A program made the position numbers and the translations under genes. Positions 34,770-49,086 of a stretch of 64,000 nt of DNA are shown one piece after another; position 1 is the first letter of the stretch; each line of letters begins with the position of its first letter. The stretch is taken from assembly GCA_903821355.1 (NCBI GenBank), contig CAIJKW010000006.1, positions 23,898 to 87,897 of the forward strand. Direction: 5' to 3'. The DNA comes from an uncultured bacterium (GTDB taxonomy: Bacteria; Patescibacteriota; Minisyncoccia; Phycocordibacterales; CAIZLB01). The notes under the pieces are model-generated. The model saw only the letters and a program-made list of their open reading frames with translations, was not told where the DNA came from and ran no database searches.

Positions 34770-34902
34770 ATAAAAATTGTATCACAAGTTTAAACTTTTA
34801 TATAACAACAAACCAGCCACCAGAGGTCTTTGTAGACATGGTGGCTTGGGGTTGATGTTGTTTGATGTTATTGCGTCGCTGACGACAGTGGATTTTGAAA
34901 GC

Positions 34903-35256
34903 TCATGGGTCAAGCCATCTCTTACCTTCTCTGGTGTGTGGGTTGATATACCCAACACCAAAGATGTGGATAGGGTCGGGACAGCCGTGCATAAACTCGT
35001 TGAAACTCCTCATCCGCCTTCGCTGTCTAGACCGATTTGCCTGTCCCTTATCTTGAGTAAACAGAAGACAGCCTTCATACAACTCGTAGGAGAAAAGTTT
35101 TTTCAATTTCAGAAGCCTAGCGAGATGAAAGGCTACCTCATTTCTTGAAAAACCAGTCTCTTCCGTGAAGTCGTCGAAACTTTTGATGTCACACCTTGTC
35201 AATTCAAGGAGTTTTTCTCGTCTATTGTGTGCTTTTGTTTGATTTTGTTCATTCAT
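34903..35256 (-). CDS. hypothetical protein (uncertain; overlaps a plus-strand ORF 34777-35148)
   Basis: ORF only. The N-terminal half looks protein-like and the C-terminal half is Arg-rich. Confidence 0.25.
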   Translation of the reverse strand: MNEQNQTKAHNRREKLLELTRCDIKSFDDFTEETGFSRNEVAFHLARLLKLKKLFSYELYEGCLLFTQDKGQANRSRQRRRMRSFNEFMHGCPDPIHIFGVGYINPHTREGKRWLDP

Positions 35257-35472
35257 TTGTTGCCTCCTCTCTGGTCTGTGTGTAAAGTAAGTCGTATATT
35301 AAAACACCGAGCAATACCTTAGTGGTGTCTAATAGCAGATTTTTCACGTCAGTTTGTTCTATTGGTTTTCAGTTTGTAGAGGTTTAGCTCAAAGACTTCC
35401 AAGGCAAAGAGCTGTTTTATTCATCAAAAGGATATTCTTTTATATACAGGAAGTCAATGTCATTTTTGAATT

Positions 35473-35560
35473 AGGTTCGAACTCAATTTAAGGTAAACAA
35501 AGATGCCTTTACAGAATAAGGATATTTTACTATGCTCCGAACCTGGGACGATGTTCGAAT
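35473..35560 (+). repeat. cassette-boundary repeat R2
   Basis: AGGTTCGAACTCAATTTAAGGTAAACAAA…CCTTTACAGAATAAGGATATTTTAC…GCTCCGAACCTGGGACGATGTTCGAAT. Confidence 0.7.
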
Positions 35561-35631
35561 GATTGTTTTATGTAAATGAAAACCATCCCTGTCACGAGCG
35601 GCTTTCGTGAGGGGTGGTGAAGGTGGATTAC

Positions 35632-35850
35632 TCAACAGGGATTACCCCATATGTTATATCTGATAAAGTGTTTTTCACCCTGTTGGTCTAACCACTCCAT
35701 CCAAGAGATTGATACTCTCGCAAAGCCGTTGAGTCCAATCTGTACAGTGTCACCGACGTTGAGTTTTGGGGGAGGGTCAATTTCAACCCTTGCTCCACCC
35801 ACAAACTCAACCAACCCGAAACCTAAGCGACTTACTACATGTTTTATCAT
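35632..35850 (-). CDS. hypothetical small protein
   Basis: 72-aa ORF inside cassette 2. Confidence 0.35.
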   Translation of the reverse strand: MIKHVVSRLGFGLVEFVGGARVEIDPPPKLNVGDTVQIGLNGFARVSISWMEWLDQQGEKHFIRYNIWGNPC

Positions 35851-35879
35851 AATACTTGTTGGCTGGTGTTACTGTTATT

Positions 35880-36026
35880 TCAGGACTTCATCTCTCGTGC
35901 GCTGGCGATTGCCGTCAAAGCGTTCTTGAGATATTCTTCAGCTTTTCCATAAGAGCTGTCTTTCATCGCTAGACTGGCAAGCTCTGCGAAAAGCCGTGCG
36001 ACTTTTTCGTAATCTTTCTTTTTCAT
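35880..36026 (-). CDS. hypothetical small protein (48 aa; not in the ORF track)
   Basis: ATG at 36026 to TGA: MKKKDYEKVARLFAELASLAMKDSSYGKAEEYLKNALTAIASAREMKS. Helical. Adjacent to the 72-aa ORF. Confidence 0.3.
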   Translation of the reverse strand: MKKKDYEKVARLFAELASLAMKDSSYGKAEEYLKNALTAIASAREMKS

Positions 36027-36144
36027 AATGACTTTGGTTCTGTGTTTTTAGTGGTTCAGCTCCGAGACTTCCAAATCAAAGAGCTGTTGTATTCATCAAA
36101 AGAATATTCTTTTACATACGAGAAGTCAATGTCATTTTATAATT

Positions 36145-36292
36145 AGGTTCGAACTAGATTTAAGGTAAACAAAAAATACCCTTACAGAATAAGGATATTT
36201 TACGAGGCTCCGAACTTGGGAGGTTGCTCCCTTTTTGTTCAAGAACGTAGTGATTGAATACAAATAGCAGTCCCCTTTAGGGGGTTCGAATT
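36145..36292 (+). repeat. cassette-boundary repeat R3 (full unit plus an extra CCCCT/AGGGG hairpin and GTTCGAAT motif at 36271-36291)
   Basis: AGGTTCGAACTAGATTTAAGGTAAACAAAAAATACCCTTACAGAATAAGGATATTTTACGAGGCTCCGAACTTGGGAGG…GGGGGTTCGAATTATT. Confidence 0.7.
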
Positions 36293-36299
36293 ATTACCA

Positions 36300-37280
36300 T
36301 CAACGATAAATAGTGCTTTCAGGAGGCCATTCTCCAGTTGGAATAGCTGAATTTTTAAAGTAAACCAAGTCTTCTGGTTTAATACTATCTTCAATACCAA
36401 TCATATCGGCAATGCTTTTCATTGAATAGTAGTAAACATAATAATGTCGCAACCTTTTTAATGTAGGATCTTGTGACATATTCATATCCCAAAGTTCCTT
36501 AGGTCTAGGTAAAAGAGCCTCAATGATATGGTAATCAATTGAACCATCTTCCTTCTTGTAAATAGTTATATTATTTTGGCCGAATATATCAATCATCAAT
36601 CCTGTTCTTTTTGTATATTCAATAATTTTTGAAACAATCTCTCTTACTACTATTTTATATTTTTCGTCCTTTAGCAATTCTTCAAAACTAACAAGAAAAT
36701 TATCATCAATAATACTACGAGTCTCCCTCAAGGCTTCGTCTATATTAATTTGCTTAAAAAAATCAGTATGCGTAATTAAATCAGTACTAAACTCTATTGT
36801 TGAAAATTTTTCTGGATCTCTAAGCTCCTCCGCTACAACCTGAGTCTCCGCCAACATTTCTATTTCAGTTTCAAAATAATCTGGTAATTTTTCAACAGCA
36901 TTAGCCCTTTCATTTCCCAAGAAAGATAGTAAAAATTCTTTTGTAATTGGTATTTTTATTTTAAATACTCCTGTCTTTAAAAAATGTTCTTCTCCAAAAA
37001 TATCTTTTATTTCTTTTTCATCTCTTTCCAGTTCATCTATTTGTTCTCTTTGTGCTTCATGATTTTTATTCTCAAAATCATCAGGTGAGTAATTTTCAGC
37101 CGACAACAAATTTGATATTTTTTGTCTTAAAACAGTTTGACTGACTTTTATTATTTTTCTTGTACTTCCAGGAGTTTCTAATACCACTTTGTCAGCGCCA
37201 ATTCCAACGAATTTATATCCACGTTTTTTTAACGGCTCCTGATCTAAAATTTCTTTTATTCTCTGTTTTGTCTCTTCCAT
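36300..37280 (-). CDS. hypothetical protein
   Basis: 326-aa ORF with an acidic central region. No family recognised. Confidence 0.5.
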   Translation of the reverse strand: MEETKQRIKEILDQEPLKKRGYKFVGIGADKVVLETPGSTRKIIKVSQTVLRQKISNLLSAENYSPDDFENKNHEAQREQIDELERDEKEIKDIFGEEHFLKTGVFKIKIPITKEFLLSFLGNERANAVEKLPDYFETEIEMLAETQVVAEELRDPEKFSTIEFSTDLITHTDFFKQINIDEALRETRSIIDDNFLVSFEELLKDEKYKIVVREIVSKIIEYTKRTGLMIDIFGQNNITIYKKEDGSIDYHIIEALLPRPKELWDMNMSQDPTLKRLRHYYVYYYSMKSIADMIGIEDSIKPEDLVYFKNSAIPTGEWPPESTIYR

Positions 37281-37344
37281 GCATTTATTTTAACATTTAT
37301 ATTTAGCTATACATATAGAAAAAGAATGGCAATATGTAGGCATA

Positions 37345-37407
37345 AAAATAACCCTATATTATTAGGGGTATTTTCGTCGGCTCCGCACCTGGGAGGATGT
37401 TCGAATG
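37345..37407 (+). repeat. cassette-boundary repeat R4 (terminator hairpin ACCCTATATTATTAGGGGT+ATTTTCG, then GGCTCCGCACCTGGGAGGATGTTCGAATG)
   Basis: GGCTCCGC is identical to the complement of the tRNA-Asn acceptor 3' end (49015-49022). Confidence 0.7.
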
Positions 37408-37581
37408 TTAATAAACAAGGTAGAATAAACAGACACCATCAAAACCGTGAAAATATCTATTTTTATGAGGCTTTTCACGGTTTTGATTGATTAACGTAAT
37501 GCATGGTTTCCTTACATTACTTGACTCAATGTAAGCAAAAAGGTATACTTTGCTTACATTGTTAAAAAGATGTAAACAAAC

Positions 37582-38724
37582 ATGAAATCAATACAAATTG
37601 GAGAATTAATACAACAAAAAAGTGGCTTTAAAGCATTCGTCCCCTACCCCTTTCCCCCAAAAGGTGGTTTTGAATTTAACCAAAAGACCCTAAAAAAAGT
37701 TGATGAAGCAACCCGTCTACTTGGTAAACTTGATGGAATTACAAAACTACTACCAGATGTAGATTTCTTTTTAGGTATGTACCTTAGAAAAGACGCAGCT
37801 TCATCAAGTCAAATTGAAGGAACAATGGCAACAATGATTGATGCGATTGAGGCTGAGGTAAATTCTAATGCAAGTATTCCTCCTGATGTCGATGATATTT
37901 TACATTACATCAAAGCTCTTAATTACGGTATGAAGCGAGTACAACAAGATAACTTTCCAATGTCTCTGCGTTTTATAAGAGAGCTACATAAACACTTGAT
38001 GGACAAAGCACGTTCAACGCACTTTTCAGATCCAGGCGAATTTAGAAAATCACAAAATTGGATTGGTGGCACGCGTCCAGACAATGCCCGTTTTGTTCCT
38101 CCACCAGTTGAAGAAATGAAAGTATCACTTAGTGATCTTGAAAAGTTTATGCACGGAGATGATGACAACCTTACTCTGGTTAAAGCAGCCCTAATTCATG
38201 CTCAATTTGAGACTATTCACCCGTTCTTGGATGGTAATGGTAGAACTGGTCGAATGATTATAACCTTCTATCTTTGGAAAGAGGGGTATCTTGAAAAACC
38301 TGTTTTATTTTTATCCTCATATTTCAAAAAACATCAAAAAGTTTATTACGAGAAACTTCTTAACTATCACTTTGGTGGTGTTGAAGAATGGGTAGAATTC
38401 TTTCTTGATGGTGTTGCTGAAATTGCGAATGAAGCAATAGATATTGTTGGTAAGATTACAAAACTACGCGACAAAGATATGTTAAAAATTCAAACACTGG
38501 GAAAACGTGCCGCGATGAGTGCTGGTATTGTATTACCTAAATTATACGAACAACCTATTGTTAATATTGCTTCTATTCAAAAAATGACTAATTTTTCAAG
38601 AGTAGGATCTCAAGATATTATCAATCGTTTCATCGAAATGGATATTTTAGTTCCGAAAGATAAAGATAAGAAATATGGACAATCATACATATACAAGAAA
38701 TATGTTGATATTTTTTCTGAGTAG
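37582..38724 (+). CDS. Fic family protein (AMPylator/phosphocholine transferase-type Fido domain)
   Basis: Canonical Fic motif HPFLDGNGRTGRMII. Confidence 0.85.
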   Translation: MKSIQIGELIQQKSGFKAFVPYPFPPKGGFEFNQKTLKKVDEATRLLGKLDGITKLLPDVDFFLGMYLRKDAASSSQIEGTMATMIDAIEAEVNSNASIPPDVDDILHYIKALNYGMKRVQQDNFPMSLRFIRELHKHLMDKARSTHFSDPGEFRKSQNWIGGTRPDNARFVPPPVEEMKVSLSDLEKFMHGDDDNLTLVKAALIHAQFETIHPFLDGNGRTGRMIITFYLWKEGYLEKPVLFLSSYFKKHQKVYYEKLLNYHFGGVEEWVEFFLDGVAEIANEAIDIVGKITKLRDKDMLKIQTLGKRAAMSAGIVLPKLYEQPIVNIASIQKMTNFSRVGSQDIINRFIEMDILVPKDKDKKYGQSYIYKKYVDIFSE

Positions 38725-38752
38725 AGGAGCTTTTAGTTAAATATCTTGTCCT

Positions 38753-38785
38753 AACTGGCTTCGAACTTGGGACGATGTTCGAATA
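38753..38785 (+). repeat. cassette-boundary repeat R5 (AACTGGCTTCGAACTTGGGACGATGTTCGAATA)
   Basis: AACTGGCT(C/T)CG matches 49009-49019 at the tRNA-Asn 3' end / recombinase stop region. Confidence 0.7.
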
Positions 38786-38829
38786 ATTTTTATTAACACA
38801 TTTCTATAATATGATATAATCTTCGAATA

Positions 38830-39342: not shown

Positions 39343-39415
39343 GGGACGGGACCCCTACAGAACCTTTTCGTCGTGATGTGTATATTATATCAAGAGTTGT
39401 CTGTTAGTCAAGTAG

Positions 39416-39479
39416 AAAAATAACCCCATATTCATAGGGCTATTTTCACTGGCTCCCTATCTTGGACGAGTTCAGAACC
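39416..39479 (+). repeat. cassette-boundary repeat R6 (hairpin ACCCCATATTCATAGGG+TATTTTC; ACTGGCTCCCTATCTTGGACGAGTTCAGAAC)
   Basis: ACTGGCTCC is identical to 49010-49018. Confidence 0.7.
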
Positions 39480-39635
39480 ATTAATTGGCAGAACATTAAA
39501 ATTAAATTAGGTAGATTGAGTTTTGTATAAAAATTTAACACCATCCGAAGATGGTGTCATTACCCCGAAGAATTGAACTTCGGTAACGGTTTGTAACCGA
39601 GTGGAGAATACCACTATTTAGACAATTCCCTGCCG

Positions 39636-40784: not shown

Positions 40785-40900
40785 GATGTTTTTCTCCTAG
40801 TTCAAGGTTCAGTTTCGTTGTTGAAGAGATTGCTCTCTTGGAACCACAGTTCAGTAGCTCTGTAAATATTATACATTAGATATAATATAAAGTCAAATTT

Positions 40901-40926
40901 GCTCCTATCTTGGACGAGTTCAGAAC
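40901..40926 (+). repeat. cassette-boundary repeat R7 (GCTCCTATCTTGGACGAGTTCAGAAC)
   Basis: Shares the 17-mer TTGGACGAGTTCAGAAC with R6 and R8. Confidence 0.65.
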
Positions 40927-41059
40927 TTTGGATTGGGTAAATATTAGCAAAGAATTGCGTTGTTTTAATTTTGTATAAACAGAAAACCCACCAACTCGCG
41001 ACGGAGCCAGTGGGTCTTCCGTGTTAAGTTGATGGGTGAATTACGAACGATGAACTGAA

Positions 41060-41686: not shown

Positions 41687-41778
41687 GATATTAAGTCCTT
41701 TCTTGTTGGTTGTTTGAATTCGAAATCAATGTGCGTATGCACGAGATAATAACACGTTTTATTAATACCGTCAAATCA

Positions 41779-41803
41779 GCGCCTATTGGACGAGTTCAGA
41801 ACT
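41779..41803 (+). repeat. cassette-boundary repeat R8 (GCGCCTATTGGACGAGTTCAGAAC)
   Basis: Shares TTGGACGAGTTCAGAAC with R6 and R7. Confidence 0.65.
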
Positions 41804-41808
41804 GACTA

Positions 41809-42240
41809 TCATCTATGTTTTTTACCAATAGCGACAATGTTGAATATGTTATTTACCACATACCCAAAAATTCTACCAGCACCCGAATAATCAACTTCAA
41901 GCATTTCTATATCCTCTTGTATTCCATCAAACAACACAGAATAATTACCAGAATTACTGATTGGTTTACATGCAATACATGAAATATGTTGATGCCTAAA
42001 GTGTTTAGTTGGTATTTTTGAGATTTTCTTTAGTTCTTTTGTTAACTTTTTTGCTTCAATATTATCTAGTTTATATATCTCACATTGATTATTATTATAA
42101 ATCTCAAAACTAAAAACCACCCTCCTATTTTCATAGTCTTTAAGAGCGTCGGAAATGGCCACTGTTGGAGAAATGATATCCCGTTCCGCAGTTAGGTTTG
42201 CTATACTACTAGGAAGTTTTTGACTTGAGTTTTCCTGCAT
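41809..42240 (-). CDS. hypothetical protein; candidate toxin partner of the upstream Panacea-domain antitoxin
   Basis: 143 aa. The start overlaps the end of the Panacea gene by 32 bp. No family recognised. The call is contextual. Confidence 0.45.
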   Translation of the reverse strand: MQENSSQKLPSSIANLTAERDIISPTVAISDALKDYENRRVVFSFEIYNNNQCEIYKLDNIEAKKLTKELKKISKIPTKHFRHQHISCIACKPISNSGNYSVLFDGIQEDIEMLEVDYSGAGRIFGYVVNNIFNIVAIGKKHR

Positions 42241-42691
42241 AAAACTTCTTTGCTGTAGTTAAATTTATTATATTATTTGATGACTCTGATGCAGATGTAT
42301 CCTTTCTTGCTTCCTGCCAAGGAAGTTCAGAATGTGAAAGCGCCTCAAGATATTCTGCATTATATTTTCCATAAATAGCCCAGATACTTTCAAGTAATTC
42401 CACTTGTTTTTTAGAAAAACTGAAAGAAACTTTGGTGGTATCCATTTGTATTGGATTGAACTCAAACACCTTAAACCTTCTATATACAGCAGGAATTGCA
42501 GGCCCGTGAATCCATGCTTCAATCCTTTCAGAGAATAATTTTTCACCATTAACAACCAGAGACCAAACTTGCGCATAATAAAGTAGTTTCTGTAACTTTT
42601 TGTTGGTTATTGTTTCTTTTTCTTTATTTGCCTTATCAATAAAATACTCTGCGACAGTCAATGCACTTATTTTTTTAGTGACTGAACTCAT
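42209..42691 (-). CDS. Panacea-domain (DUF4065, SocA/PanA-like) putative antitoxin
   Basis: …KKLQKLLYYAQVWSLVVNGEKLFSERIEAWIHGPAIPAVYRRF… matches the conserved DUF4065 core. Confidence 0.6.
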   Translation of the reverse strand: MSSVTKKISALTVAEYFIDKANKEKETITNKKLQKLLYYAQVWSLVVNGEKLFSERIEAWIHGPAIPAVYRRFKVFEFNPIQMDTTKVSFSFSKKQVELLESIWAIYGKYNAEYLEALSHSELPWQEARKDTSASESSNNIINLTTAKKFYAGKLKSKTS

Positions 42692-42774: not shown

Positions 42775-43446
42775 ATGAATAAGAAAGTAAACATTAAAGA
42801 CCCTTATGTTAATTCTAAAGGACTAAAAAAATTATGGAATTATTTTCTGTATTTAGTAGAAAAACCCGACTTTCTTGAAAAAATAGATGGGATACGAACC
42901 AAATATAACATAGATATAAACAATAAATTAGAGGATGACGGCAACCTATCTAATCAAGATTTATTTAAGGACATAATCGCATTGGCTGAAGAATATGAGC
43001 TTGATTCAAGTACTTGGTTGACGTCGATTGCCCCATTGGTGTTGTGGAATATATTAGCAGAACCAGCGTGTACAGATATTTGTATAACCTCTGATAATAT
43101 AAATGACCACGATTTAAGCGAAAATGAGAGACGACACTATCCCGTATCAATTAGAATTAGCCCTTACGCAAGCAAACGTGACATCTTAGACTACATCAAT
43201 AGATTTTATAAATACATCTCCCAAACCCAAGAAAATTACAAGGACGAATCAGTGAAAATTGGTCGCCTTAAGACAAGGAAAGATGCTATAAAAAAGCGTA
43301 ATAGCTTTATATATGAACATAAACATCTGCCAACAAAAGAGATTATGCAACTCGTCGGCAAAGAGTTTGGTCTTAATTCTATTATTGACTGTGCTTATAT
43401 AGGCAAAATAATAGCACTAGAAAACAAAAAAAGAAAAGAAGTGTGA
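42775..43446 (+). CDS. hypothetical protein
   Basis: 223-aa ORF. No family recognised. Confidence 0.45.
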   Translation: MNKKVNIKDPYVNSKGLKKLWNYFLYLVEKPDFLEKIDGIRTKYNIDINNKLEDDGNLSNQDLFKDIIALAEEYELDSSTWLTSIAPLVLWNILAEPACTDICITSDNINDHDLSENERRHYPVSIRISPYASKRDILDYINRFYKYISQTQENYKDESVKIGRLKTRKDAIKKRNSFIYEHKHLPTKEIMQLVGKEFGLNSIIDCAYIGKIIALENKKRKEV

Positions 43447-43674
43447 TACAGATTTTTTCCGTATTACAGAAAATACTTATACTGTATTTTGCATCAATAG
43501 TATTCTGAAGACATCCTTCGGGATATTTTATGCAGGATACTGTTTCAACAAAAAACTTCAAAGTAAACGAGCTACCAGCTAACGACAAACGAAAATTGGT
43601 CGATGCTTTAACTTGGTTAATACAAGAAGATAAAAAGCAAAATCCTGCACTTTATCAGATTAAAAAAGAACAAA

Positions 43675-44793
43675 ATGATAGACACGATATGTCTCTTGAT
43701 ACCAAAAGACAAGATGAATTACCAATCAGGAGTAACCAGCTGGGAGCTTTACTCACAAACGGACCAATACAAGAAATACGTTCGAAATCCAAATAAGGCT
43801 GAAAAAGAAACTGGTAAATATTTCCCTAGATTAACAAGCTATGAACGAAAATTTTCTCAAGAAGCAAACATCCGAATGGAGTTTTCTGTCCCTAAGTTAA
43901 TATATCTAAACAATCTAAATGAGCTTGAAGATAAAGACTTTACAGAGGTAATTGAGATACTCCAAGAAAGACTTAAGACCATGGGAGTAATCGTTACAAA
44001 AGAAGTTCTTGAAAATGCATCAGTAAGTTCGGTCCACTTTTCAAAGAACATATTACTTCAAGACGGATACACTTCTAGCCACTTAATTTCAGAAATGAAT
44101 AAAGTTAATTTACAAAAAAGATTTGATTTTGCAAAGACTAGATTTATGAATGACGGACAAAGCCTCTATGCTCACACCACAGCCCACCAGCTTGTTATAT
44201 ACGACAAGATAGCAGATTTAAACAAAGACAAGAAGCGGGCAATAGATAAGGACCAAACTTTATATCAACAGAATCTATTTACAGAAATAACCAAAGAAGA
44301 TAAATTCCAAGAAATAATACGATTTGAGATTAGGCTGGCTAAAAAGCCTAAAATGAATACGGTCATTGAAGATTTAGGCTATCAAAAGAACCCTACATTC
44401 AAAGACGTATTTAGTACTGAGATGAGTCAAAAAGTTGTTACTAGCTACTGGAAGACACTTATCAAAGAAAGAGGACTTGGAATATTCTCGATAACAATAA
44501 GACCAAAGGATATATTGCAGACTCTATTTCTAGCAGACTTAAAACTAAAGCCAAAACAAGCTGTCTATCTTCTAGGATTATTTACCTTAGCCAAGGACGA
44601 GAATGGTATGAGGCAACTAAGAGAGATTGTCTCAAAGAGGTCTACTGAAGAAACTTGGTATCGAATAGCCAGAGATTTACGACGGTCCAGTGAATTAATA
44701 ACTCAAAACAAGCTACGGGACTGGGTTACTCAAATAGATACAGCGTTAGAAGATTATAAACCATATAAAATTAAAGATTATGAAAACAAATAA
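43675..44793 (+). CDS. hypothetical protein, possibly a replication-initiation-type protein of a mobile element
   Basis: 372 aa. Only weak resemblance to phage/plasmid Rep proteins. Sits in the element between the cassette array and xis. Confidence 0.4.
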   Translation: MIDTICLLIPKDKMNYQSGVTSWELYSQTDQYKKYVRNPNKAEKETGKYFPRLTSYERKFSQEANIRMEFSVPKLIYLNNLNELEDKDFTEVIEILQERLKTMGVIVTKEVLENASVSSVHFSKNILLQDGYTSSHLISEMNKVNLQKRFDFAKTRFMNDGQSLYAHTTAHQLVIYDKIADLNKDKKRAIDKDQTLYQQNLFTEITKEDKFQEIIRFEIRLAKKPKMNTVIEDLGYQKNPTFKDVFSTEMSQKVVTSYWKTLIKERGLGIFSITIRPKDILQTLFLADLKLKPKQAVYLLGLFTLAKDENGMRQLREIVSKRSTEETWYRIARDLRRSSELITQNKLRDWVTQIDTALEDYKPYKIKDYENK

Positions 44794-44977
44794 GAAAAAC
44801 CTAAGTGCAATTGATAAATTTTCAAATAATATGAATCTACTTTTTGCAGATTATTATAATAAAAAACTTTCAGAAAGCATAAAAAGAGGGCTAGAATTAA
44901 GGAAAAAAAGATTGTCCACATCAAAAGTTGATATGTAAAGAATTGTAAAGTATACTTATTAAGTTAATATAATAAAA

Positions 44978-45157
44978 ATGAATAAAGAAAAAGAATTTTA
45001 CAAAGCAGAAGATTTAGCGAAGTCGTTAGAAGTAAACATTATGACGATTTATCGTTATATAAAATCAGGTCGCCTAAAGGCGTACAAGATAGGTCGTGAG
45101 TTTCGTATCGATAAAAAAGAATTCAATGTCTTTCTTAACAGCGTAAAAACAATATAA
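44978..45157 (+). CDS. excisionase/Xis-family helix-turn-helix DNA-binding protein (59 aa; not in the ORF track)
   Basis: MNKEKEFYKAEDLAKSLEVNIMTIYRYIKSGRLKAYKIGREFRIDKKEF… is a typical Xis/MerR-type HTH_17 motif. Immediately upstream of the R-M and recombinase genes. Confidence 0.55.
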   Translation: MNKEKEFYKAEDLAKSLEVNIMTIYRYIKSGRLKAYKIGREFRIDKKEFNVFLNSVKTI

Positions 45158-45162
45158 AAAAA

Positions 45163-46284
45163 ATGGAAGAATGCCTAGTTCATGATTTAATCATGCAAAC
45201 CAAAGAAATTCAGGATGATTTAAAAAGTATATTACTTATTGACCATAATAATAGTTTTAAACTAATACATGAAGACCAATACATAAACGGAATCACAGCT
45301 GATTTTACACTTGTATCAAATAACAAAATTAGAGCGATTGTTGAATGCAAAGCTGGAAATATAGGTATTACTGACTATGTTCGTGGTATAGGGCAAGTCA
45401 TGCAATATGAGTATTTCTATGAAGAAAAAATTACCCCTAAGAGTATTGAGTATGATACTATTTTTAACTCCGTATTGTTGTTTCCCTCGTCTGTTATTAA
45501 AAATAATATATTCAATGTAGGTAGGTTCAAATATCCAAAAAGTACCGTAATTGTTGAATTGAACGATTCAAGTAAGGTACTTAGAAGAATTAATGACTCA
45601 GAACTTGATAAACTAAAGGAAGCGACCGAACAAAACTTGGTAACGATAAGCCAATACTACATAAGAGACAATCGACTATACGAATTATATATTCTTTTAA
45701 ATTATCTAACATTTCTAAAATTCAAGGGCGTTAACGAGGTAAATAGAAATGATTCAGAGGAGCTTTTTTTGAATCATATAGGTACGCAAAATAATGGAAA
45801 TTGGAGAAATGCGTTCATTAGTTTATCCTCTCTTGGTTTTATAGATAGTTATAATATCCCAACCTCTTCAGGAGTTAAGTATGCAAATCTAACTTTTGAA
45901 AAATTTGCTGTGGAAATATATAAGTCATACATAAAACCATATTTTGAAGTTATATTACAATTATTCAATACTGGAGAACAAGTGGACATTAGTAATCAAG
46001 AAATCTGCGACAGAATAAAACAAAGATACCTTGGTAGAGACGTCCTGTTTTTGACAGAGTCTGAAGGTAGATATATTTCTAGCTGGTTAAATATTCTAAG
46101 GGATGATTATGGATGTTTGGAATTTGCCCCAAGAAAAAAGGAGAGAAGAATGACTTATGATTTATTGAATTATAATGAGGAAGGTCTGGAAGCGGCAATT
46201 AAAAGTAAGTCTATCGCTTACGAATATATAAATAAATATTTTACACTATTAAATAACCAAAAAGCATATGTATACAATTTTTGA
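45163..46284 (+). CDS. putative type II restriction endonuclease (by context)
   Basis: 373-aa ORF. Its end overlaps the start of the C5-methyltransferase gene by 17 bp. No conserved family recognised. Confidence 0.45.
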   Translation: MEECLVHDLIMQTKEIQDDLKSILLIDHNNSFKLIHEDQYINGITADFTLVSNNKIRAIVECKAGNIGITDYVRGIGQVMQYEYFYEEKITPKSIEYDTIFNSVLLFPSSVIKNNIFNVGRFKYPKSTVIVELNDSSKVLRRINDSELDKLKEATEQNLVTISQYYIRDNRLYELYILLNYLTFLKFKGVNEVNRNDSEELFLNHIGTQNNGNWRNAFISLSSLGFIDSYNIPTSSGVKYANLTFEKFAVEIYKSYIKPYFEVILQLFNTGEQVDISNQEICDRIKQRYLGRDVLFLTESEGRYISSWLNILRDDYGCLEFAPRKKERRMTYDLLNYNEEGLEAAIKSKSIAYEYINKYFTLLNNQKAYVYNF

Positions 46285-47527
46285 AACTTTTGTCGGTGTG
46301 GGTGGGTCTCATATTGGATTTAAAAATAAAGGGTTTAAAACCATCTACGTGAATGATAACAACGAAGATTGTTTAGCAACGCTTATATTAAACAATCCTG
46401 AATTACAAGGCACAGCATATATAGATAACAGAAGCATTCTTGATGTTTCCACGTCTGATTTATTGAAAAAAATTAAGATGAAGAAAAAATCTCTAGATGT
46501 ATGTTTTGGTGGAATTGTATGTAAAGGTTTTAGTTTGGCTGGAGAAAGGTCCCCCAATGATGAAAGAAGTTATTTTTATCATAAACAAATTGAATTAGTT
46601 TCTGAACTGATGCCAAAAATTAGCATAATTGAAAACGTAAAAGGTATTCTAAATGCAAAAGTTTTATCTGCTAAAACGCCAAAGAAGATAAAAGATGAGG
46701 TTGACTTTATATGGCAAGAGCTTGAAAACTATAAGGGCAAAAAGGCGGATTTGAGGAAGAAAGACAAAATCACAAAATCATTTGAAAGTGAGGGTGAAGT
46801 TTTAAGGCAAAATAAAGAAAAAATGTTAGTTAGACTTGAAAAAGAAGGCTATTTGGTATCAGTACTAGATGATATACATGATATTTATCAAAAATTAGGC
46901 TACAAAGTCAAATATCAGGTACTAAACACAGCATGGTATGGAGCATCTACAAAAAGAGAGCGTGTTATTATCGTTGCAGTAAGAAACGATATAAAAGAAG
47001 AGTTCTTGTTTCCAGTACCTAAATTTTTAGATAAAACGATAACCACCAAACTAACTGGTTTCAACATAGACGGAGTAAAATTTAAAAAGCCTATTTCCAT
47101 TAATGAGGCATTGTCTAAAATAAATTATAAAAAAATAGACCCTGATAATATCGCAATGCAACATTCACCAAAAACGGTTAGTCGTTTTAAGTGTATTCCT
47201 GAAGGAAGAAATATATCTGACATGATGGATGGCGTACCTGATGACCTTAAAATTAGTAAATTCTATTCAAGAGGAAACACAATGAGATTAAATGGAAATT
47301 CACTAAGTCCAACTCTTGTACCTGGACACAGCAATTTTCCTATTCACCCAAAAGAAGATAGGAGTATTACCGTCAGAGAAGCGGCTTGTATAACTGGCTT
47401 CCCTATTGACTACAAGTTCGTCGGTAGCCACACTAAACGTTGTGAGCATGTTGGTAACGCTGTCCCTCCGCCTCTTGCTGAAGCTATAGCTCAAAGTTGT
47501 ATTGATTTGCTAAATAAAATTAAATGA
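46268..47527 (+). CDS. DNA (cytosine-5)-methyltransferase
   Basis: Motif I FVGVGGSHIGF, motif IV GGIVCKGFSLAG (catalytic Cys) and motif VI IENVKGIL. Confidence 0.85.
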   Translation: MYTIFETFVGVGGSHIGFKNKGFKTIYVNDNNEDCLATLILNNPELQGTAYIDNRSILDVSTSDLLKKIKMKKKSLDVCFGGIVCKGFSLAGERSPNDERSYFYHKQIELVSELMPKISIIENVKGILNAKVLSAKTPKKIKDEVDFIWQELENYKGKKADLRKKDKITKSFESEGEVLRQNKEKMLVRLEKEGYLVSVLDDIHDIYQKLGYKVKYQVLNTAWYGASTKRERVIIVAVRNDIKEEFLFPVPKFLDKTITTKLTGFNIDGVKFKKPISINEALSKINYKKIDPDNIAMQHSPKTVSRFKCIPEGRNISDMMDGVPDDLKISKFYSRGNTMRLNGNSLSPTLVPGHSNFPIHPKEDRSITVREAACITGFPIDYKFVGSHTKRCEHVGNAVPPPLAEAIAQSCIDLLNKIK

Positions 47528-49026
47528 AAGCAATAAACGTCTCAAGAGTATCAACGGAAGAACAAAAAGAAGCTGGTAATTCCCTACCTGCTCAAATTGA
47601 GCGTATAAATAAATATTGCAAAAACAAATCATTTGAAATTATTAAATCTTTTAGCTTCGATGAAAGTGCCTATAAAGATAAGCGAGATGAATTTGATAAA
47701 TTTTTAGACTACGTTGAAGAGTTAGTTAAAAAAGAGAAGATAGCAGTTTGTTTTGACAAAGTAGACAGGCTTTCAAGAAGTGTTTTCGACAAGAGAGTTG
47801 CGAGACTTTATGAACTGGCCATGGCTGGAAAAATTGAACTTCATTTTGTTTCTGATAATCAGGTAATAAAAGGTGAGCTTTCTGCAACTGAAAAAGGTGG
47901 GTTTGGTATGAGTCTCGTAATGGCTAGTTACTATTCAAATGCTATTAGTGATAATGTCAAAAGAGCTTTTGAGCAAAAAAGAAGAAGTGGAGAATGGACT
48001 GGGCCAGTGTGTTTAGGTTATTTAAATATAAGCCTAAACGAGGAAAAAAGACTACGCAAAGACATAATAATTGACCCAGAGCGTGGCCACCTTATTCTAA
48101 AAATGTTTGAGCTTTATTCGACAGGATTGTACTCTTTAGAAACCTTGAGATTAAAGATGACAGAACTTGGATTAAGAACTCTCAAGGGAAACATCTTAAC
48201 AAAAAGCGGAGTTGATAACATAATAAGAAACAGCTTTTATTGTGGAATAGCTATTTCGAGAAAATATGGTGCATACCCACACAACTACCCTCGTCTAATA
48301 ACTAAGGATTTATTTGATAGATGTAAGGAAATTCAAATTGGACGATTCAATAACATACATAAGGAAGTCTCAAAAGACTTCATCTTTAAAGGTTTACTAA
48401 AATGCCAGAATTGCGGTTGTGCAATAACAGCTGAGCAACACGAGGGCAAGCCCATATACTATTCCTGTACAAATGGTAAACATATATGCAAGAGATTATA
48501 TATCAATGAGAAAGACCTTCTGAAGCCCATATACGAGGTCCTAGAGCGTTTTGAGAGCATTACAGAGGAGGTGGCTAATGATTTAGTAAGTGAGCTAAGA
48601 AAGAACACTGAATCAGAAATTGTGTATCATAAAGCACAAATTAATCGTATAAGAATTAATTACGATAACCTTTTAGCAAAACAAGAAAGACTGCTTGAAG
48701 CTTTTTTGGACCAGAGTATTACTAAGAGCATCTATGACAAGAAACACGAAGAGCAACAAGACCAAATACAGACCTTAGAAATTGAAATGTCTGAACACAA
48801 TAAAGCAGACTATGATTACCAAACTACCGTTGCCACAGTACTTTCTGTAGCAAGAAGAGCAAAGAGCATATTTGAAAATAGTTCTGAAGTTGCAGGAAAA
48901 AGAGCATTTTTGAGCATGATACTTCAGAACCCTGTCATAAACGAAAAAAAGCTAGTGTTTACAATAGCTTCTCCGTTCAATCTAGTATTAGAATTAGCTG
49001 ACCGTCCAAACTGGCTCCGCGGGTAG
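47524..49026 (+). CDS. large serine recombinase (resolvase/invertase N-domain + recombinase domain + zinc ribbon)
   Basis: Catalytic region INVSRVSTEEQ…DRLSRS. Cys cluster CQNCGC…CTNGKHIC. Coiled-coil C-terminus. Its last 15 nt overlap the 3' end of tRNA-Asn on the opposite strand. Confidence 0.85.
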   Translation: MKAINVSRVSTEEQKEAGNSLPAQIERINKYCKNKSFEIIKSFSFDESAYKDKRDEFDKFLDYVEELVKKEKIAVCFDKVDRLSRSVFDKRVARLYELAMAGKIELHFVSDNQVIKGELSATEKGGFGMSLVMASYYSNAISDNVKRAFEQKRRSGEWTGPVCLGYLNISLNEEKRLRKDIIIDPERGHLILKMFELYSTGLYSLETLRLKMTELGLRTLKGNILTKSGVDNIIRNSFYCGIAISRKYGAYPHNYPRLITKDLFDRCKEIQIGRFNNIHKEVSKDFIFKGLLKCQNCGCAITAEQHEGKPIYYSCTNGKHICKRLYINEKDLLKPIYEVLERFESITEEVANDLVSELRKNTESEIVYHKAQINRIRINYDNLLAKQERLLEAFLDQSITKSIYDKKHEEQQDQIQTLEIEMSEHNKADYDYQTTVATVLSVARRAKSIFENSSEVAGKRAFLSMILQNPVINEKKLVFTIASPFNLVLELADRPNWLRG

Positions 49027-49086
49027 GATTCGAACCTACGACCAATTCGTTAACAGCGAACTGCTCTACCACTGAGCTACCGCGGA
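49012..49086 (-). tRNA. tRNA-Asn (anticodon GUU), CCA encoded
   Basis: Manual fold: acceptor UCCGCGG/CCGCGGA; D-arm GCUC-AGUGGU-AGAGC; anticodon stem GUUCG/CGAAU with loop CUGUUAA; T-arm GGUUCGAAUCC; discriminator G + CCA. Confidence 0.85.

What the first reader, a model, noticed from the sequence alone, without database searches (positions are those of the whole stretch)
44978..49086. Xis-like HTH, restriction-modification pair and large serine recombinase whose stop codon lies inside the tRNA-Asn 3' end
- The operon-like string is a 59-aa excisionase-type HTH (44978-45157), an unknown 373-aa protein, a C5-methyltransferase and a serine recombinase.
- The genes overlap by 17 bp and 4 bp.
- The last 15 nt of the recombinase overlap the tRNA-Asn 3' end on the opposite strand.
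- Established knowledge: integrative elements targeting tRNA 3' ends place the recombinase next to the tRNA and duplicate the tRNA 3' end at the far boundary.
- Most such elements use tyrosine integrases; a tRNA-targeting large serine recombinase with an encoded directionality factor is less common.
- The R-M pair probably stabilises the element.
- The 373-aa gene is a candidate novel restriction endonuclease.
Basis: partly seen in the sequence, partly recalled or inferred. Interest (0 to 1): 0.6.

Follow-up and report, generated by a model that had tools for sequence, protein, structure and literature searches.

The report
Mobile restriction-modification element at tRNA-Asn
A mobile DNA element of about 7 kb sits at the very end of a tRNA-Asn gene in a candidate-phyla-radiation (Patescibacteria) bacterium, and it belongs to a large family, not found in the papers I could search, that carries restriction-modification systems using a serine integrase whose own gene spans the attachment site.

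Summary
HTH_17 (44978-45157), a 373-aa protein, a C5 methyltransferase and a 500-aa large serine recombinase (LSR) form a tight co-directional string. The LSR stop codon lies 15 nt inside the 3' end of tRNA-Asn (49012-49086, minus strand).

The element runs from about 41780 to 49016. It also holds a SocA/Panacea pair, two conserved unknown genes and a 372-aa protein distantly related to gpII/Rep_trans rolling-circle initiators.

The same backbone (Rep-like, HTH_17, cargo, LSR) occurs in at least 289 species genomes, nearly all Patescibacteria. In 67 of 75 informative loci the LSR runs into a tRNA 3' end, mostly Asn. A conserved left-end arm (TGGACGAGTTCAGAACT) lies 5-11 kb upstream. Circular copies of 7.4 and 9.4 kb exist.

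The slot between HTH and LSR almost always holds a restriction-modification system. The 373-aa protein is a PD-(D/E)xK nuclease that travels with its methylase in unrelated phyla.

The attachment site attP lies inside the LSR reading frame. Integration replaces a conserved 24-34-aa tail with tRNA-encoded residues.

Upstream (34.1-41.8 kb), eight older junctions delimit defence-gene units.

This is a new variant of a known kind. The excision factor and current mobility are untested.

The parts
49012..49086 (-). tRNA-Asn(GTT), intact. Its last about 5 nt (A72, G73, C74, C75, A76 = + strand 49012-49016) are inferred to be supplied by the element.
   Evidence: ARAGORN; Rfam RF00005 74.5 bits; junction register.
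48990..49040 (+). attR (P arm | B' arm): ...GACCGTCCAAACTGGCT|CCGCGGGTAGGATTCGAACC. The inferred central dinucleotide is T|C at 49016|49017. The outer motif GATTCGAAC (the tRNA T-loop) lies at half-site positions 11-19.
   Evidence: Sequence; alignment of 30 right junctions; the GTCC...GGAC dyad centre in the circular attP; attB/attP motif register of Rutherford et al. 2013.
47524..49026 (+). Large serine recombinase, 500 aa, in its integrated (short) form. The last residues L-R-G-stop are encoded by the tRNA gene's complementary strand.
   Evidence: Pfam PF00239/PF07508/PF13408; R8-S10 invariant; more than 1600 homologous clusters, best 120 at 69-78% identity.
46268..47527 (+). C5 cytosine DNA methyltransferase (cargo).
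   Evidence: Pfam 2.7e-47; TIGR00675 4.6e-43; PADLOC MTase_II 6.8e-70; PDB C5-MTases.
45163..46284 (+). 373-aa candidate type II restriction endonuclease (cargo). It has an N-terminal PD-(D/E)xK-like domain and matches no named family.
   Evidence: AF2 pLDDT 93.4; Foldseek partial hits to NucS/EndoMS, XisH-like 2okf, SfsA, McrC and restriction enzymes; invariant E37, D47, E61, K63; synteny with PF00145 in L080-L083.
44978..45157 (+). 59-aa HTH_17 / excisionase-family protein, a backbone gene. Candidate directionality factor or operon regulator.
   Evidence: Pfam, TIGR01764, PHROG; present in 61 of 79 loci at up to 91% identity (best hits 77-91%); 5-18 nt from the LSR gene in cargo-less relatives.
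44780..44938 (+). 52-aa ORF resembling LSR helix E (residues 116-154). Probably a remnant of a second, short serine-recombinase-like gene that is longer in other elements.
   Evidence: tblastn 36% identity, E 0.003; longer versions in L016, L033, L039, L051.
43675..44793 (+). 372-aa backbone protein, a distant gpII (Phage_CRI) / Rep_trans-like rolling-circle initiator candidate.
   Evidence: Present in 63 of 79 loci at up to 80% identity (best hits 75-80%; more distant loci 46-49%); 1067 clusters by profile search; 6 of 45 diverse members hit PF05144 (1.8e-10) and 3 hit PF02486 (1.2e-7). The window protein itself has no Pfam hit.
43530..43796 (+). 88-aa conserved small ORF overlapping the start of the Rep-like gene.
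   Evidence: tblastn hits in 36 loci.
42775..43446 (+). 223-aa backbone protein of unknown function.
   Evidence: tblastn hits in 21 loci at 30-39% identity; no family match.
41809..42691 (-). Left-slot cargo: SocA/Panacea antitoxin-like protein (42209-42691) and its 143-aa partner (41809-42240).
   Evidence: Pfam PF13274 6.7e-21; the pair recurs in 4 loci; Panacea is the commonest left-slot family.
41746..41822 (+). Nearest left junction: ACCGTCAAATCAGCGCC|TATTGGACGAGTTCAGAACT. It is degenerate. The core is GCGCC instead of GCTCC (41779-41783), the distance from the centre to GGAC is 6 nt instead of 9, and the tail-coding sequence is lost.
40864..40947 (+). Older junction (LSR-end relic | type-B element arm); spacing 8 nt; the 24-codon tail is kept.
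39414..39500 (+). Canonical attL-type junction: terminator hairpin + CACTGGCT|CCCTATCTTGGACGAGTTCAGAACC. The spacing is 9 nt and the 24-codon tail is kept. It is the best candidate partner of attR for excision.
34094..38803 (+). Five older junctions with the type-A element arm (GAACyTGGGAsGATGTTCGAAT) at 34094-34178, 35496-35579, 36169-36252, 37342-37424 and 38720-38803. They delimit units of 0.6-1.4 kb, including SoFic (37582-38724). The unit after the last type-A junction holds a NYN nuclease (38830-39342).
   Evidence: nhmmer E 1e-13 to 1e-16; PADLOC SoFic 1.4e-108 and NYN; type-A junctions in other loci.

Best explanation
The region is the tRNA-proximal member of a family of 5-11 kb integrative, probably rolling-circle-replicating elements of Patescibacteria. 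These elements act as carriers of restriction-modification systems.

The circular form carries attP inside the 3' end of its own large-serine-recombinase gene:
- The P arm is the last about 25 bp of the shared ORF (...PNW).
- The centre is T|C within TGGCTCC.
- The P' arm is CCCyTAGTGGACrAGTTCAGAACT, followed by 24-34 further codons of the recombinase.

The recombinase recombines attP with the extreme 3' end of tRNA-Asn. The B' arm is the acceptor/T-arm, with the T-loop GATTCGAAC serving as the outer motif 5 bp closer to the centre than in attP. The crossover falls at about positions 71/72.

Three consequences follow from integration:
- The tRNA keeps its body and receives its last about 5 nt (including CCA) from the element.
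- The recombinase loses its conserved tail and ends in tRNA-encoded residues (here L-R-G-stop).
- The tail codons end up at the far left end of the element.

HTH_17, the R-M genes and the recombinase form one co-directional unit. The R-M pair (a new PD-(D/E)xK nuclease plus a C5 methylase) is exchangeable cargo that protects the host and stabilises the element.

Repeated integration at the same tRNA, followed by decay of older copies, has built the array of junctions and defence genes at 34.1-41.8 kb.

Shown: anatomy, family-wide conservation, both junction types, circular copies, cargo content. Inferred: crossover position, rolling-circle replication, HTH as directionality factor or regulator, function of the tail swap, present mobility.
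For: Observation and domains.

Family size and conservation:
- More than 1600 LSR clusters at E<=1e-20, best 120 at 69-78% identity.
- 289 matching stretches among 185,579 species genomes.
- Backbone genes recur with the LSR: Rep-like in 63 of 79 loci, HTH in 61 of 79.

tRNA overlap: present in 67 of 75 informative loci.

LSR C-termini: they share ...SPFNLVLELAxxPNW. After that they read LRG*, LGR*, LRRQGSNL and similar, which is the reverse complement of CCA, acceptor stem and T-loop.

Left arm: TGGACGAGTTCAGAACT preceded by (T)GGCTCC occurs on the same strand 5.4-11 kb upstream in 43 of 79 loci, usually once. Several contigs begin or end at these boundaries.

Circular forms:
- L154 and L155 come from two sequencing runs and are the same 9,406-bp circle after rotation (0 mismatches, 30-nt terminal overlaps).
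- L153 is a 7,369-bp circle (43-nt terminal overlap).
- All three carry Rep-like, HTH, R-M and a long-form LSR spanning attP.

An unoccupied tRNA-Asn with tip plus terminator is seen in L039.

Half-site register:
- The dyad GTCC-18 nt-GGAC is centred on T|C.
- The outer motif sits at positions 11-19 in the tRNA arm and 16-24 in the element arm.
- This matches the 5-bp ZD-motif shift described for serine integrases (PMC3783163).

Tail:
- A 34-codon frame, PLVDKFRTANWTxIKSELQFSGILGLFPxLxLQN*, follows the P' arm.
- Third-position variation is in excess: entropy 0.77/0.62/1.25 for codon positions 1/2/3.
- Long-form proteins carrying this tail are in databases.

Cargo:
- Of 102 ORFs in the HTH-LSR slot of 54 loci, 21 match N6_N4_Mtase, 13 C5 methylase, 13 ResIII, 6 D12, 6 N6_Mtase and 5 Eco57I. 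HpaII, BpuJI, Mrr and HNH families also occur.
- A methylase catalytic motif is present in 40 of 54 loci, against 0 of 40 for the left slot.

373-aa nuclease.

Tandem copies and truncated LSR remnants next to element arms.
Against: - No empty site or circular junction could be obtained for this particular genome. Its proteins are not on record in the contig index.
- The nearest left junction is degenerate (centre T->G, spacing 3 nt short, tail lost), so this copy may no longer excise on its own.
- The Rep assignment is indirect. The window protein has no Pfam hit, its model has pLDDT 70, and there is no PDB fold or sequence match.
- No recombination directionality factor is demonstrated.
- Terminal-overlap contigs could also arise from identical tandem copies.
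- Five junctions in the array have tRNA-tip + terminator left arms. Simple serial integration predicts only one.
- Promoter and terminator scans are uninformative.
Confidence: 0.85

Rival explanations
1. The unit is only the four-gene operon as read by the first stage: an Xis, R, M and integrase module with the tRNA 3' end duplicated at its far boundary near 44.9 kb.
For: The four genes are tightly packed and co-directional. A promoter-like site lies at 44928-44956.
Against: - No copy of the tRNA end or element arm lies near 44.9 kb.
- The Rep-like gene, the 88-aa ORF and the 223-aa gene upstream are conserved with the LSR in most loci and are inside the circular forms.
- The conserved left arm is at 41785-41802.
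Confidence: 0.03
2. It is a prophage (for example an inovirus-like filamentous phage) rather than a plasmid-like integrative element. The gpII-like gene would then be the phage replication initiator.
For: Distant Phage_CRI/G2P similarity in family members. The size of 5-11 kb is inovirus-like. Inoviruses have been reported in CPR and can use serine recombinases (PMC6813254).
Against: - No relative of the LSR is found in 2.9 million IMG/VR contigs.
- No pI/Zot-type ATPase, coat or other structural family appears among the most frequent Pfam families (the 25 most frequent are listed per slot) in the left- or right-slot ORFs of 40-54 loci, nor in the window element.
- The variable space is filled by R-M and toxin-antitoxin/abortive-infection genes.
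Confidence: 0.07
3. The upstream array (34.1-41.8 kb) is not debris of full elements. It is a working array of recombinase-less cassettes, each carrying an element arm at one end and a tRNA-tip + terminator at the other, inserted and excised in trans by the LSR. This would be an integron-like or SCC-like system.
For: - Five junctions have tip + terminator left arms rather than LSR remnants.
- No LSR, Rep or HTH remnants lie inside the units.
- Units hold one or two genes, several of them defence genes.
- Two units share about 190 nt of right-end sequence.
- A similar hairpin|type-A junction follows the LSR in L024.
Against: - Other genomes show clear decay intermediates: LSR fragments of 60-100 aa next to the element arm.
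- A B|P' junction is an attL-type site, which serine integrases do not recombine with attB without a directionality factor (PMC3783163).
- No free cassette circles were seen.
- Survivorship of junctions can mimic order.
Confidence: 0.2
4. The HTH_17 protein is the controller (C-protein-like) of the R-M system rather than part of the recombination machinery.
For: It lies directly upstream of R and M. It gives weak matches to the MADS methylation-associated HTH (NF047737 4e-6; PADLOC mad1 9e-10).
Against: - It is conserved in 61 of 79 loci (best hits 77-91% identity) while the R-M type behind it changes between types I, II, IIG and III.
- In cargo-less elements it abuts the LSR gene.
- It is absent from the same R-M pair in other phyla.
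Confidence: 0.15

Closest known systems
Phage-type large serine integrases (Listeria A118/LI, Bxb1, phiC31, SPbeta)
   Same: Same three-domain architecture. The att sites have an imperfect dyad. The outer motif lies about 5 bp further out in attP than in attB, as in the LI integrase model (PMC3783163).
   Different: - No detectable sequence match to any solved LSR at E<1e-5.
- The target is the last nucleotides of a tRNA gene.
- attP lies inside the recombinase ORF.
- The carrier is a small R-M element, not a phage.
Tycheposons of Prochlorococcus (bioRxiv 10.1101/2020.12.28.424599)
   Same: tRNA-targeted cargo elements. They pile up next to the same tRNA, push older copies inward and leave degraded remnants and partial att repeats. 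A minority use large serine recombinases.
   Different: - Most tycheposons (910 of 937) use tyrosine recombinases and leave partial tRNA copies.
- Here only about 5-7 nt of the tRNA are shared.
- The backbone (gpII-like gene, HTH_17), the host phylum and the near-exclusive R-M cargo differ.
SCC elements of staphylococci (CcrAB/CcrC). Comparison from my own knowledge plus weak NCBIfam similarity.
   Same: Large serine recombinases insert cargo cassettes at the 3' end of a conserved gene. They build tandem composites and include recombinase-less cassettes. Sub-threshold matches to CcrB/CcrC: E about 3e-18, 65 bits against a cut-off of 900.
   Different: The target is rlmH, not a tRNA. SCC elements have no Rep-like gene. 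The Ccr genes are internal and do not span the att site. The window LSR fails the Ccr family cut-offs.
Actinomycete integrative elements of the pSAM2 type (AICE). From my own knowledge.
   Same: int + xis + rolling-circle rep, integrated at a tRNA 3' end, replicating after excision.
   Different: AICEs mostly use tyrosine integrases and carry an FtsK-like transfer gene. No such gene is general here: FtsK_gamma occurs in only 3 of 104 left-slot ORFs.
Archaeal SSV-type 'suicidal' integrases (PMC8371274)
   Same: The attachment site lies inside the integrase gene, so integration changes the gene product.
   Different: - Those are tyrosine recombinases, said to be exclusive to Archaea, and are split into inactive halves.
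- Here a bacterial serine recombinase loses only a 24-34-aa C-terminal tail and keeps all catalytic and DNA-binding domains.
Type II restriction-modification systems with C5 methylases
   Same: A nuclease gene directly upstream of, and overlapping, a C5 methylase. The pair is inherited together across phyla.
   Different: The nuclease matches no Pfam, NCBIfam or PADLOC model. Its recognition sequence is unknown.

Membership tests
Large serine recombinase | N-terminal resolvase catalytic domain with serine nucleophile | tested here: met
   PF00239 1.5e-18; R8, V9, S10, T11 invariant in 25 relatives.
Large serine recombinase | Recombinase domain followed by a zinc-ribbon domain | tested here: met
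   PF07508 1.6e-10 and PF13408 1.4e-8; invariant cysteines C294, C297, C299, C315, C322.
Large serine recombinase | attP/attB pair with a short common core and an outer (ZD) motif shifted about 5 bp | tested here: met
   Sequence level only. Motif GATTCGAAC lies at positions 11-19 in the tRNA arm; GTTCAGAAC/TGTTCGAAT lies at 16-24 in the element arms. The dyad is centred on T|C (model from PMC3783163).
Large serine recombinase | Catalyses attP x attB integration; needs a directionality factor for excision | not testable with these tools
   Only products (attL, attR), substrates (circular attP, an unoccupied tRNA-Asn) and tandem arrays were seen.
Excisionase / recombination directionality factor | Small excisionase-type winged HTH (HTH_17 / TIGR01764) | tested here: met
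   PF12728 3.9e-11; TIGR01764 2.2e-10 (above cut-off); PHROG excisionase families.
Excisionase / recombination directionality factor | Controls the direction of the cognate recombinase | not testable with these tools
   Only co-conservation with the LSR (61 of 79 loci) and adjacency in cargo-less elements. Known LSR directionality factors are diverse and not usually of this fold (my knowledge).
Type II restriction-modification system | DNA methyltransferase with catalytic motifs | tested here: met
   PF00145 2.7e-47; TIGR00675 above cut-off; PDB C5-MTases.
Type II restriction-modification system | Adjacent endonuclease with a nuclease fold and catalytic residues | tested here: met
   Prediction level only. 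pLDDT 93.4. Foldseek matches have weak E-values (0.03-0.06) but probability 0.97-0.99 to PD-(D/E)xK nucleases over about 110-140 residues. Invariant E37, D47, E61, K63. Weak HSDR_N hint at 0.011.
Type II restriction-modification system | The two genes are inherited together independently of their surroundings | tested here: met
   Same order in a Sulfurovum contig and in a chromosomal context next to histidine-biosynthesis genes and a SpoIIID-family gene. R is 53-59% and M 56-59% identical.
Type II restriction-modification system | Cleavage blocked by cognate methylation | not testable with these tools
   Needs a methylome and enzyme assays.
gpII (Phage_CRI) / Rep_trans rolling-circle initiators | Sequence membership in PF05144 or PF02486 | tested here: inconclusive
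   The window protein has no hit even at E<10. Of 45 diverse family members, 6 hit PF05144 (best 1.8e-10) and 3 hit PF02486 (1.2e-7). No PDB match.
gpII (Phage_CRI) / Rep_trans rolling-circle initiators | Catalytic tyrosine and a nick site (origin) | not tested
   Y176 and Y165/Y49 are conserved but were not mapped to the family's active site. No origin was sought.
Integron | IntI tyrosine recombinase with attI and attC-bounded cassettes | tested here: not met
   No tyrosine recombinase was found. The repeats are LSR-type half-sites joined to tRNA tips, not attC.
Tycheposon | tRNA-targeted element arrays with remnants | tested here: met
   Eight older junctions in the window and tandem LSR elements in other loci.
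Tycheposon | Shared hallmark gene set of the Prochlorococcus family (integrase plus primase/helicase replication modules) | tested here: not met
   No primase or helicase is in the backbone, which instead has a different Rep-like gene. The comparison is with the description, not with their profiles.
Inovirus | pI/Zot-like morphogenesis ATPase (the marker used for detection) | tested here: not met
   No such family is found in the window element, nor among the most frequent Pfam families (25 listed per slot) of 206 slot ORFs of relatives. None in IMG/VR. Marker as described in PMC6813254.

The most novel reading that the evidence does not exclude
Because attP lies inside the recombinase ORF, the element makes two recombinase isoforms that report its own state. 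The circular form makes a long form with a conserved 24-34-aa tail. The integrated form makes a short form ending in tRNA-encoded residues.

The tail swap, not only a separate directionality factor, would set whether the enzyme integrates or excises, or whether it is stable. This would be a bacterial, serine-recombinase counterpart of archaeal 'suicidal' integrases and of integration-dependent phage immunity.

In addition, the same enzyme may service recombinase-less one-gene cassettes (element arm + cargo + tRNA tip/terminator). That would make the tRNA-Asn locus an integron-like defence-gene array.
Probability: 0.25. Interest if true: 0.85.

Novelty: new variant of a known kind. Interest (0 to 1): 0.64.

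Why it matters
Patescibacteria are tiny, mostly uncultured episymbionts, and how they exchange genes is poorly known. Here one very conserved element family accounts for a defined hotspot (tRNA-Asn). LSR identity is 70-78% among the closest relatives, which are labelled with many different candidate phyla, and 48-65% among the more distant of the 79 loci.

The family carries R-M systems of every major type as its standard payload. This gives a concrete mechanism for how these bacteria acquire and shuffle phage defence.

The recombinases come with natural, well-defined attP and attB sites, and the attB is a universal tRNA end. That makes them candidate genome-engineering tools and possible genetic handles for organisms of this phylum, for which few genetic tools are known to me.

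The attP-inside-ORF arrangement makes a testable prediction about control of directionality in serine integrases. The 373-aa protein defines an unnamed family of more than 600 restriction-endonuclease candidates.

Tried and rejected
- Exact-protein look-ups for the window's LSR and a flanking gene, to find the source contig, strain variants or an empty site: not on record.
- A repeat profile built only from the window's junctions found few hits in other loci. It was replaced by fuzzy matching and a family-wide profile of the element arm.
- IMG/VR scan for the LSR: no relatives, so a recognised phage origin was dropped.
- The metagenome pattern scan for P|P' junctions gave 69 loci but no terminal-overlap contigs. 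Circles were found instead by looking up long-form LSR proteins.
- Promoter/terminator scan: counts near shuffled expectation (39 against 31; 2 against 3.6), so it was not used.
- I considered that the upstream repeats are decayed copies of the tRNA 3' half. This was rejected because the TTCGAA motif is displaced by 5 nt and the arms match element left ends in 43 other loci.
- I considered that the 373-aa protein might be an XisH-like excision factor, since the top Foldseek hit is 2okf. This was rejected as the main reading because the gene travels with the methylase and without any recombinase in other phyla.
- No methylase specificity could be inferred from PDB relatives.
- Literature searches for this element family returned nothing specific.

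Full report
**1. The observation**

- 44978-45157 (59 aa)
- 45163-46284 (373 aa)
- 46268-47527 (419 aa)
- 47524-49026 (500 aa)

They overlap by 17 nt and 4 nt. Pfam assigns HTH_17 (3.9e-11), nothing, C5 DNA_methylase (2.7e-47), and Resolvase + Recombinase + Zn_ribbon_recom respectively. The last is the large-serine-recombinase (LSR) architecture.

ARAGORN finds one tRNA in the window, tRNA-Asn(GTT) at 49012-49086 on the minus strand. Rfam confirms it at 74.5 bits. The LSR codons read cca aac tgg ctc cgc ggg tag. The TGG (Trp) codon is the reverse complement of the encoded CCA. L-R-G-stop is read from the acceptor stem. The overlap is 15 nt.

**2. It is one member of a very large family**

The best 120 are 69-78% identical.
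- A scan of one genome per species found 289 matching stretches. The 79 loci fetched are nearly all labelled Patescibacteria or its candidate phyla.
- Their C-termini share ...SPFNLVLELAxxPNW. After that they diverge into LRG*, LGR*, LPR*, LRRQGSNL, LPDLDSNQ.... These are translations of the opposite strand of a CCA end, acceptor stem and T-loop.
- Tally: 50 of 79 loci have an ARAGORN tRNA overlapped by the LSR stop (42 Asn, 5 Gln, 2 Asp, 1 His; 13-65 nt).
- Another 14 have a tRNA 3' half interrupted by a group I intron, 7 of them confirmed with Rfam RF00028. Three have an uncalled T-arm, 4 stop at a contig end, and 8 read into something else.

**3. The real extent of the element**

tblastn of the window's proteins against the 79 loci shows which upstream genes belong to the backbone:
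- 372-aa protein (43675-44793): 63 loci, best hits 75-80% identity
- HTH_17: 61 loci, best hits 77-91% identity
- 88-aa ORF (43530-43796): 36 loci
- 223-aa protein (42775-43446): 21 loci

The 373-aa protein occurs in none of the loci, and only distant methylases occur in 9.

A conserved sequence, (T)GGCTCC-C-yTnG-TGGACrAGTTCAGAACT, lies on the LSR strand 5.4-11.2 kb upstream of the LSR end in 43 loci, usually once. In the window the nearest copy is at 41785-41802. The element therefore spans about 41780-49016 (7.2 kb). Its left part holds a SocA/Panacea pair. Several contigs start about 120 nt before this arm or end at the tRNA, so assemblies break at the element ends.

**4. Circular forms**

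Looking up long-form LSR proteins gave three contigs.
- L154 and L155 come from two different sequencing runs. Both are 9,436 nt with 30-nt terminal overlaps. After trimming and rotation they are identical 9,406-bp circles (0 mismatches).
- L153 is 7,412 nt with a 43-nt overlap.

Their gene order is Rep-like, HTH_17, R-M, LSR, minus-strand cargo, then the counterparts of the 223-aa and 88-aa genes. The R-M is Tsp45I + N6_N4 methylase in one case and a 1008-aa MmeI-like enzyme in the other. These circles give attP directly:

GCTGACAGTCCTAACTGGCT|CCCTCTCGTGGACAAGTTCAGAAC

An unoccupied tRNA-Asn in L039 ends ...GGAGCCA and is followed by a hairpin terminator. This shows what attB looks like.

**5. 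Attachment-site logic (read from sequence; the crossover is inferred)**

- Right junctions read ...CCTAAC TGGCTC|CGCGGGTAGGATTCGAACC.
- Left junctions read (T-run/terminator)...T(G)GCTC|CCCTTAGTGGACAAGTTCAGAAC.
- The only sequence common to all four arms is GCTC, or TGGCTCC when CCA is encoded.
- In attP the inner motifs GTCC and GGAC are 18 nt apart, which centres the site on T|C.
- Counting from that centre, the 9-bp outer motif lies at positions 11-19 in the tRNA arm (GATTCGAAC, the T-loop). It lies at 16-24 in the element arm (GTTCAGAAC; TGTTCGAAT in a second arm type).
- This is the same 5-bp shift, at the same positions, that Rutherford et al. describe for the zinc-ribbon motif in attB and attP of a Listeria integrase (PMC3783163).
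- Relatives that target Gln or Asp keep the geometry and change the core to match their tRNA.

The crossover therefore falls at about tRNA positions 71/72. The element donates the last about 5 nt (A72, G73, CCA).

**6. attP lies inside the recombinase gene**

In every P|P' junction the LSR frame continues through the element arm for 24-34 more codons. The commonest version is PLVDKFRTANWTxIKSELQFSGILGLFPxLxLQN-stop.

Across 25 distinct sequences, the codons beyond the half-site vary mainly at third positions (entropy 0.77, 0.62 and 1.25 for positions 1, 2 and 3). I14, L18 and G22 are invariant despite third-position changes. The stretch is therefore under protein-level selection.

Predicted proteins with this tail are in the databases: P0092 (539 aa), P0103, P0065, P0115, P0033, P0114. 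The circles also encode them.

Integration thus removes a conserved tail and replaces it with whatever the tRNA strand encodes. A recent review states that recombinases carrying their target inside their own gene are known only from Archaea and are tyrosine recombinases (PMC8371274). Here the catalytic and DNA-binding domains stay intact, so the effect is a tail swap, not gene destruction. What the tail does is unknown.

**7. The cargo**

In 58 loci with both HTH and LSR, the gap between them ranges from 5 nt (no cargo) to 5.2 kb. All 102 ORFs of at least 90 aa in it are co-directional.

Pfam counts on these ORFs:

| Family | ORFs |
|---|---|
| N6_N4_Mtase | 21 |
| C5 DNA_methylase | 13 |
| ResIII | 13 |
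| D12 methylase | 6 |
| N6_Mtase | 6 |
| Eco57I | 5 |
| TypeIII_RM_meth | 3 |

HpaII, BpuJI, Mrr, HNH and type I S families also occur.

A crude motif proxy finds a DNA-methylase catalytic motif in 40 of 54 loci with cargo, against 0 of 40 for the left slot. The left slot holds Panacea antitoxins, DUF3800, AbiTii, AbiEii-like, Mrr and Schlafen-like genes. The family is therefore a dedicated defence and R-M carrier. The window's R-M pair is its standard payload, not an incidental stabiliser.

**8. The 373-aa protein**

- It has 610 homologs at E<=0.001 (the best 120 are 50-64% identical) with no annotation.
- It matches no Pfam, NCBIfam, PHROG or PADLOC model.
- A 41-sequence alignment gives an AlphaFold model with pLDDT 93.4.
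- Foldseek against the PDB finds only partial matches, with weak E-values (0.03-0.06) but probability 0.97-0.99 for the top ones over about 110-140 N-terminal residues. The strongest are PD-(D/E)xK enzymes: NucS/EndoMS, an XisH-like protein and SfsA. Weaker hits (probability 0.13-0.54) include McrC, SduA and the restriction enzymes PaqCI, PfoI, FokI, OkrAI and BbvCI.
- E37, D47, E61 and K63 are invariant. This is the spacing of a D...ExK active site.
- In a Sulfurovum contig, and in a second chromosomal context next to histidine-biosynthesis genes and a SpoIIID-family gene, the homolog is again followed directly by a C5 methylase. Both genes diverge in step: R 53-59%, M 56-59% identity.

Activity and recognition site remain untested.

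**9. The 372-aa backbone protein**

The window protein itself matches no family, even at E<10. Its model is mediocre (pLDDT 70) and has no PDB counterpart by fold or sequence.

A profile search finds 1067 clusters of uniform length. When 45 diverse members are scanned one by one, 6 hit Phage_CRI (the G2P N-terminal domain, best 1.8e-10) and 3 hit Rep_trans (1.2e-7).

The most likely role is a rolling-circle initiator for the excised circle. A relaxase-like role is an alternative, because Rep_trans proteins serve as relaxases in some conjugative elements (my knowledge). The LSR has no relatives in IMG/VR, and no morphogenesis genes were seen. I therefore read the element as plasmid-like rather than as a phage.

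**10. The upstream array**

A profile of the window's repeats finds eight same-strand junctions between 34094 and 41822 (E 2e-7 to 3e-16), plus the true tRNA junction.
- Three carry the common (type B) element arm: 39414-39500, 40864-40947 and 41746-41822.
- Five carry a second arm type, GAACyTGGGAsGATGTTCGAAT. In other genomes this arm also follows LSR genes directly, giving tails of the form ...NWLRTWDDVR.
- The units between junctions are 0.6-1.5 kb. They hold SoFic (PADLOC 1.4e-108), a NYN nuclease and unknown genes.

Other genomes show the process in intermediate states. A second full LSR sits immediately before the left arm in L028, L078, L025, L043 and L075. LSR fragments of 60-100 aa sit next to the arm in L086, L128, L129, L144 and L150.

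The best explanation is repeated integration at the same tRNA, with newcomers next to the tRNA and older copies eroding. This is what has been described for tycheposons.

It also implies that the recombinase tolerates almost any sequence on the flank side of attB. That fits its use of tRNA-Asn in very different hosts.

**11. State of this copy**

The distance from the centre to GGAC is 9 nt in the circles and in the junction at 39449. It is 8 nt at 40902. At the nearest junction it is 6 nt, the central T is also replaced by G (GCGCC, 41779-41783) and the tail codons are lost.

Serine recombinases need matching central dinucleotides. The 7.2-kb unit is therefore probably no longer excisable by itself. 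The junction at 39414-39500 has a terminator + tip left arm and a canonical element arm, and it is the only intact attL. A 9.6-kb composite (39455-49016) could still excise. This is inference from sequence.

**12. Unexplained**

Five junctions have left arms that look like native tRNA ends (tip + terminator hairpin). They fall into two sequence types, and two of them share about 190 nt. Serial integration at one tRNA should leave only one such arm.

Possible explanations are recombinase-less cassettes that carry their own tip + terminator, local duplication, or capture of foreign attB flanks. None was resolved. The first is kept as a rival and as part of the novel reading.

**13. Comparison and verdict**

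In mechanism it is an LSR integrative element. In population behaviour it resembles tycheposons and SCC composites. In gene set it resembles int-xis-rep elements such as pSAM2. In having attP inside the integrase gene it resembles archaeal SSV-type integrases.

It fails the membership tests for integrons, inoviruses and the Ccr family (65 bits against a cut-off of 900). Searches of the held literature found no description of this family. That is absence from the library, not proof of novelty.

I rate it a new variant of a known kind, of moderate to high interest. The interest lies in the family-level features rather than in this particular, possibly immobilised, copy.

Noticed in passing
L006, L017, L019, L022, L029, L050, L055 (just downstream of the LSR end, for example L019:3646-3902): The tRNA next to the recombinase carries a group I intron (Rfam RF00028, 55-94 bits) in its anticodon loop, so ARAGORN does not call it. 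The recombinase still abuts the intact 3' exon.
   Followed up: partly
window 44780-44938: A 52-aa ORF between the Rep-like gene and the HTH resembles helix E of the LSR (36% identity over 39 aa, E 0.003). Other elements have a longer LSR-like fragment (residues about 104-270, or 7-293) at this position. It is possibly a second, truncated recombinase-derived protein.
   Followed up: partly
window 37582-38724 and 38830-39342: A SoFic-type Fic defence protein (PADLOC 1.4e-108) and a NYN-domain nuclease each occupy their own junction-bounded unit in the array upstream of the element.
   Followed up: partly
window 33900-34180, 35300-35582, 35975-36255: Three junctions share about 75 nt of left-arm sequence (TTAGGTTCGAACTCGATTTAAGGTAAAC + hairpin), and two of them share about 190 nt. 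The near-palindromic GGTTCGAAC upstream of the hairpin resembles the recombinase's outer binding motif.
   Followed up: partly
window 52151-52723: A HicA toxin gene (52490-52723, PF07927 1.5e-10) is directly preceded by a 112-aa ORF that may be its antitoxin.
   Followed up: no
window 51268-52092 (minus strand): A 274-aa protein very rich in Y, N, S, G and Q, with internal repeats of 90 nt and 24-30 nt. Several overlapping ORFs there are artefacts of the repeats.
   Followed up: no
window 49351-49914 (minus strand): A protein with an N-terminal methylation motif (type IV pilin-like, PF07963 3.2e-8) lies on the far side of the tRNA, in the host flank.
   Followed up: no
window 26000-28000: GC content rises to 0.45 against about 0.35 elsewhere. 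A formyl-transferase gene (27152-27811) lies there.
   Followed up: no
L008, L023, L051, L055, L058 (starts); L001, L007, L011 (ends): Genome contigs begin about 120 nt before the element's left arm or end at the tRNA junction. This suggests that assemblers break at element boundaries, as expected if populations are mixed for presence of the element.
   Followed up: no
L032, L047, L052, L061, L066, L071, L078: Records labelled Alphaproteobacteria, Gammaproteobacteria, Neomarinimicrobiota or Pacearchaeota carry the same Patescibacteria-type element. These are probably mis-binned or mislabelled genome bins rather than cross-phylum transfer.
   Followed up: no
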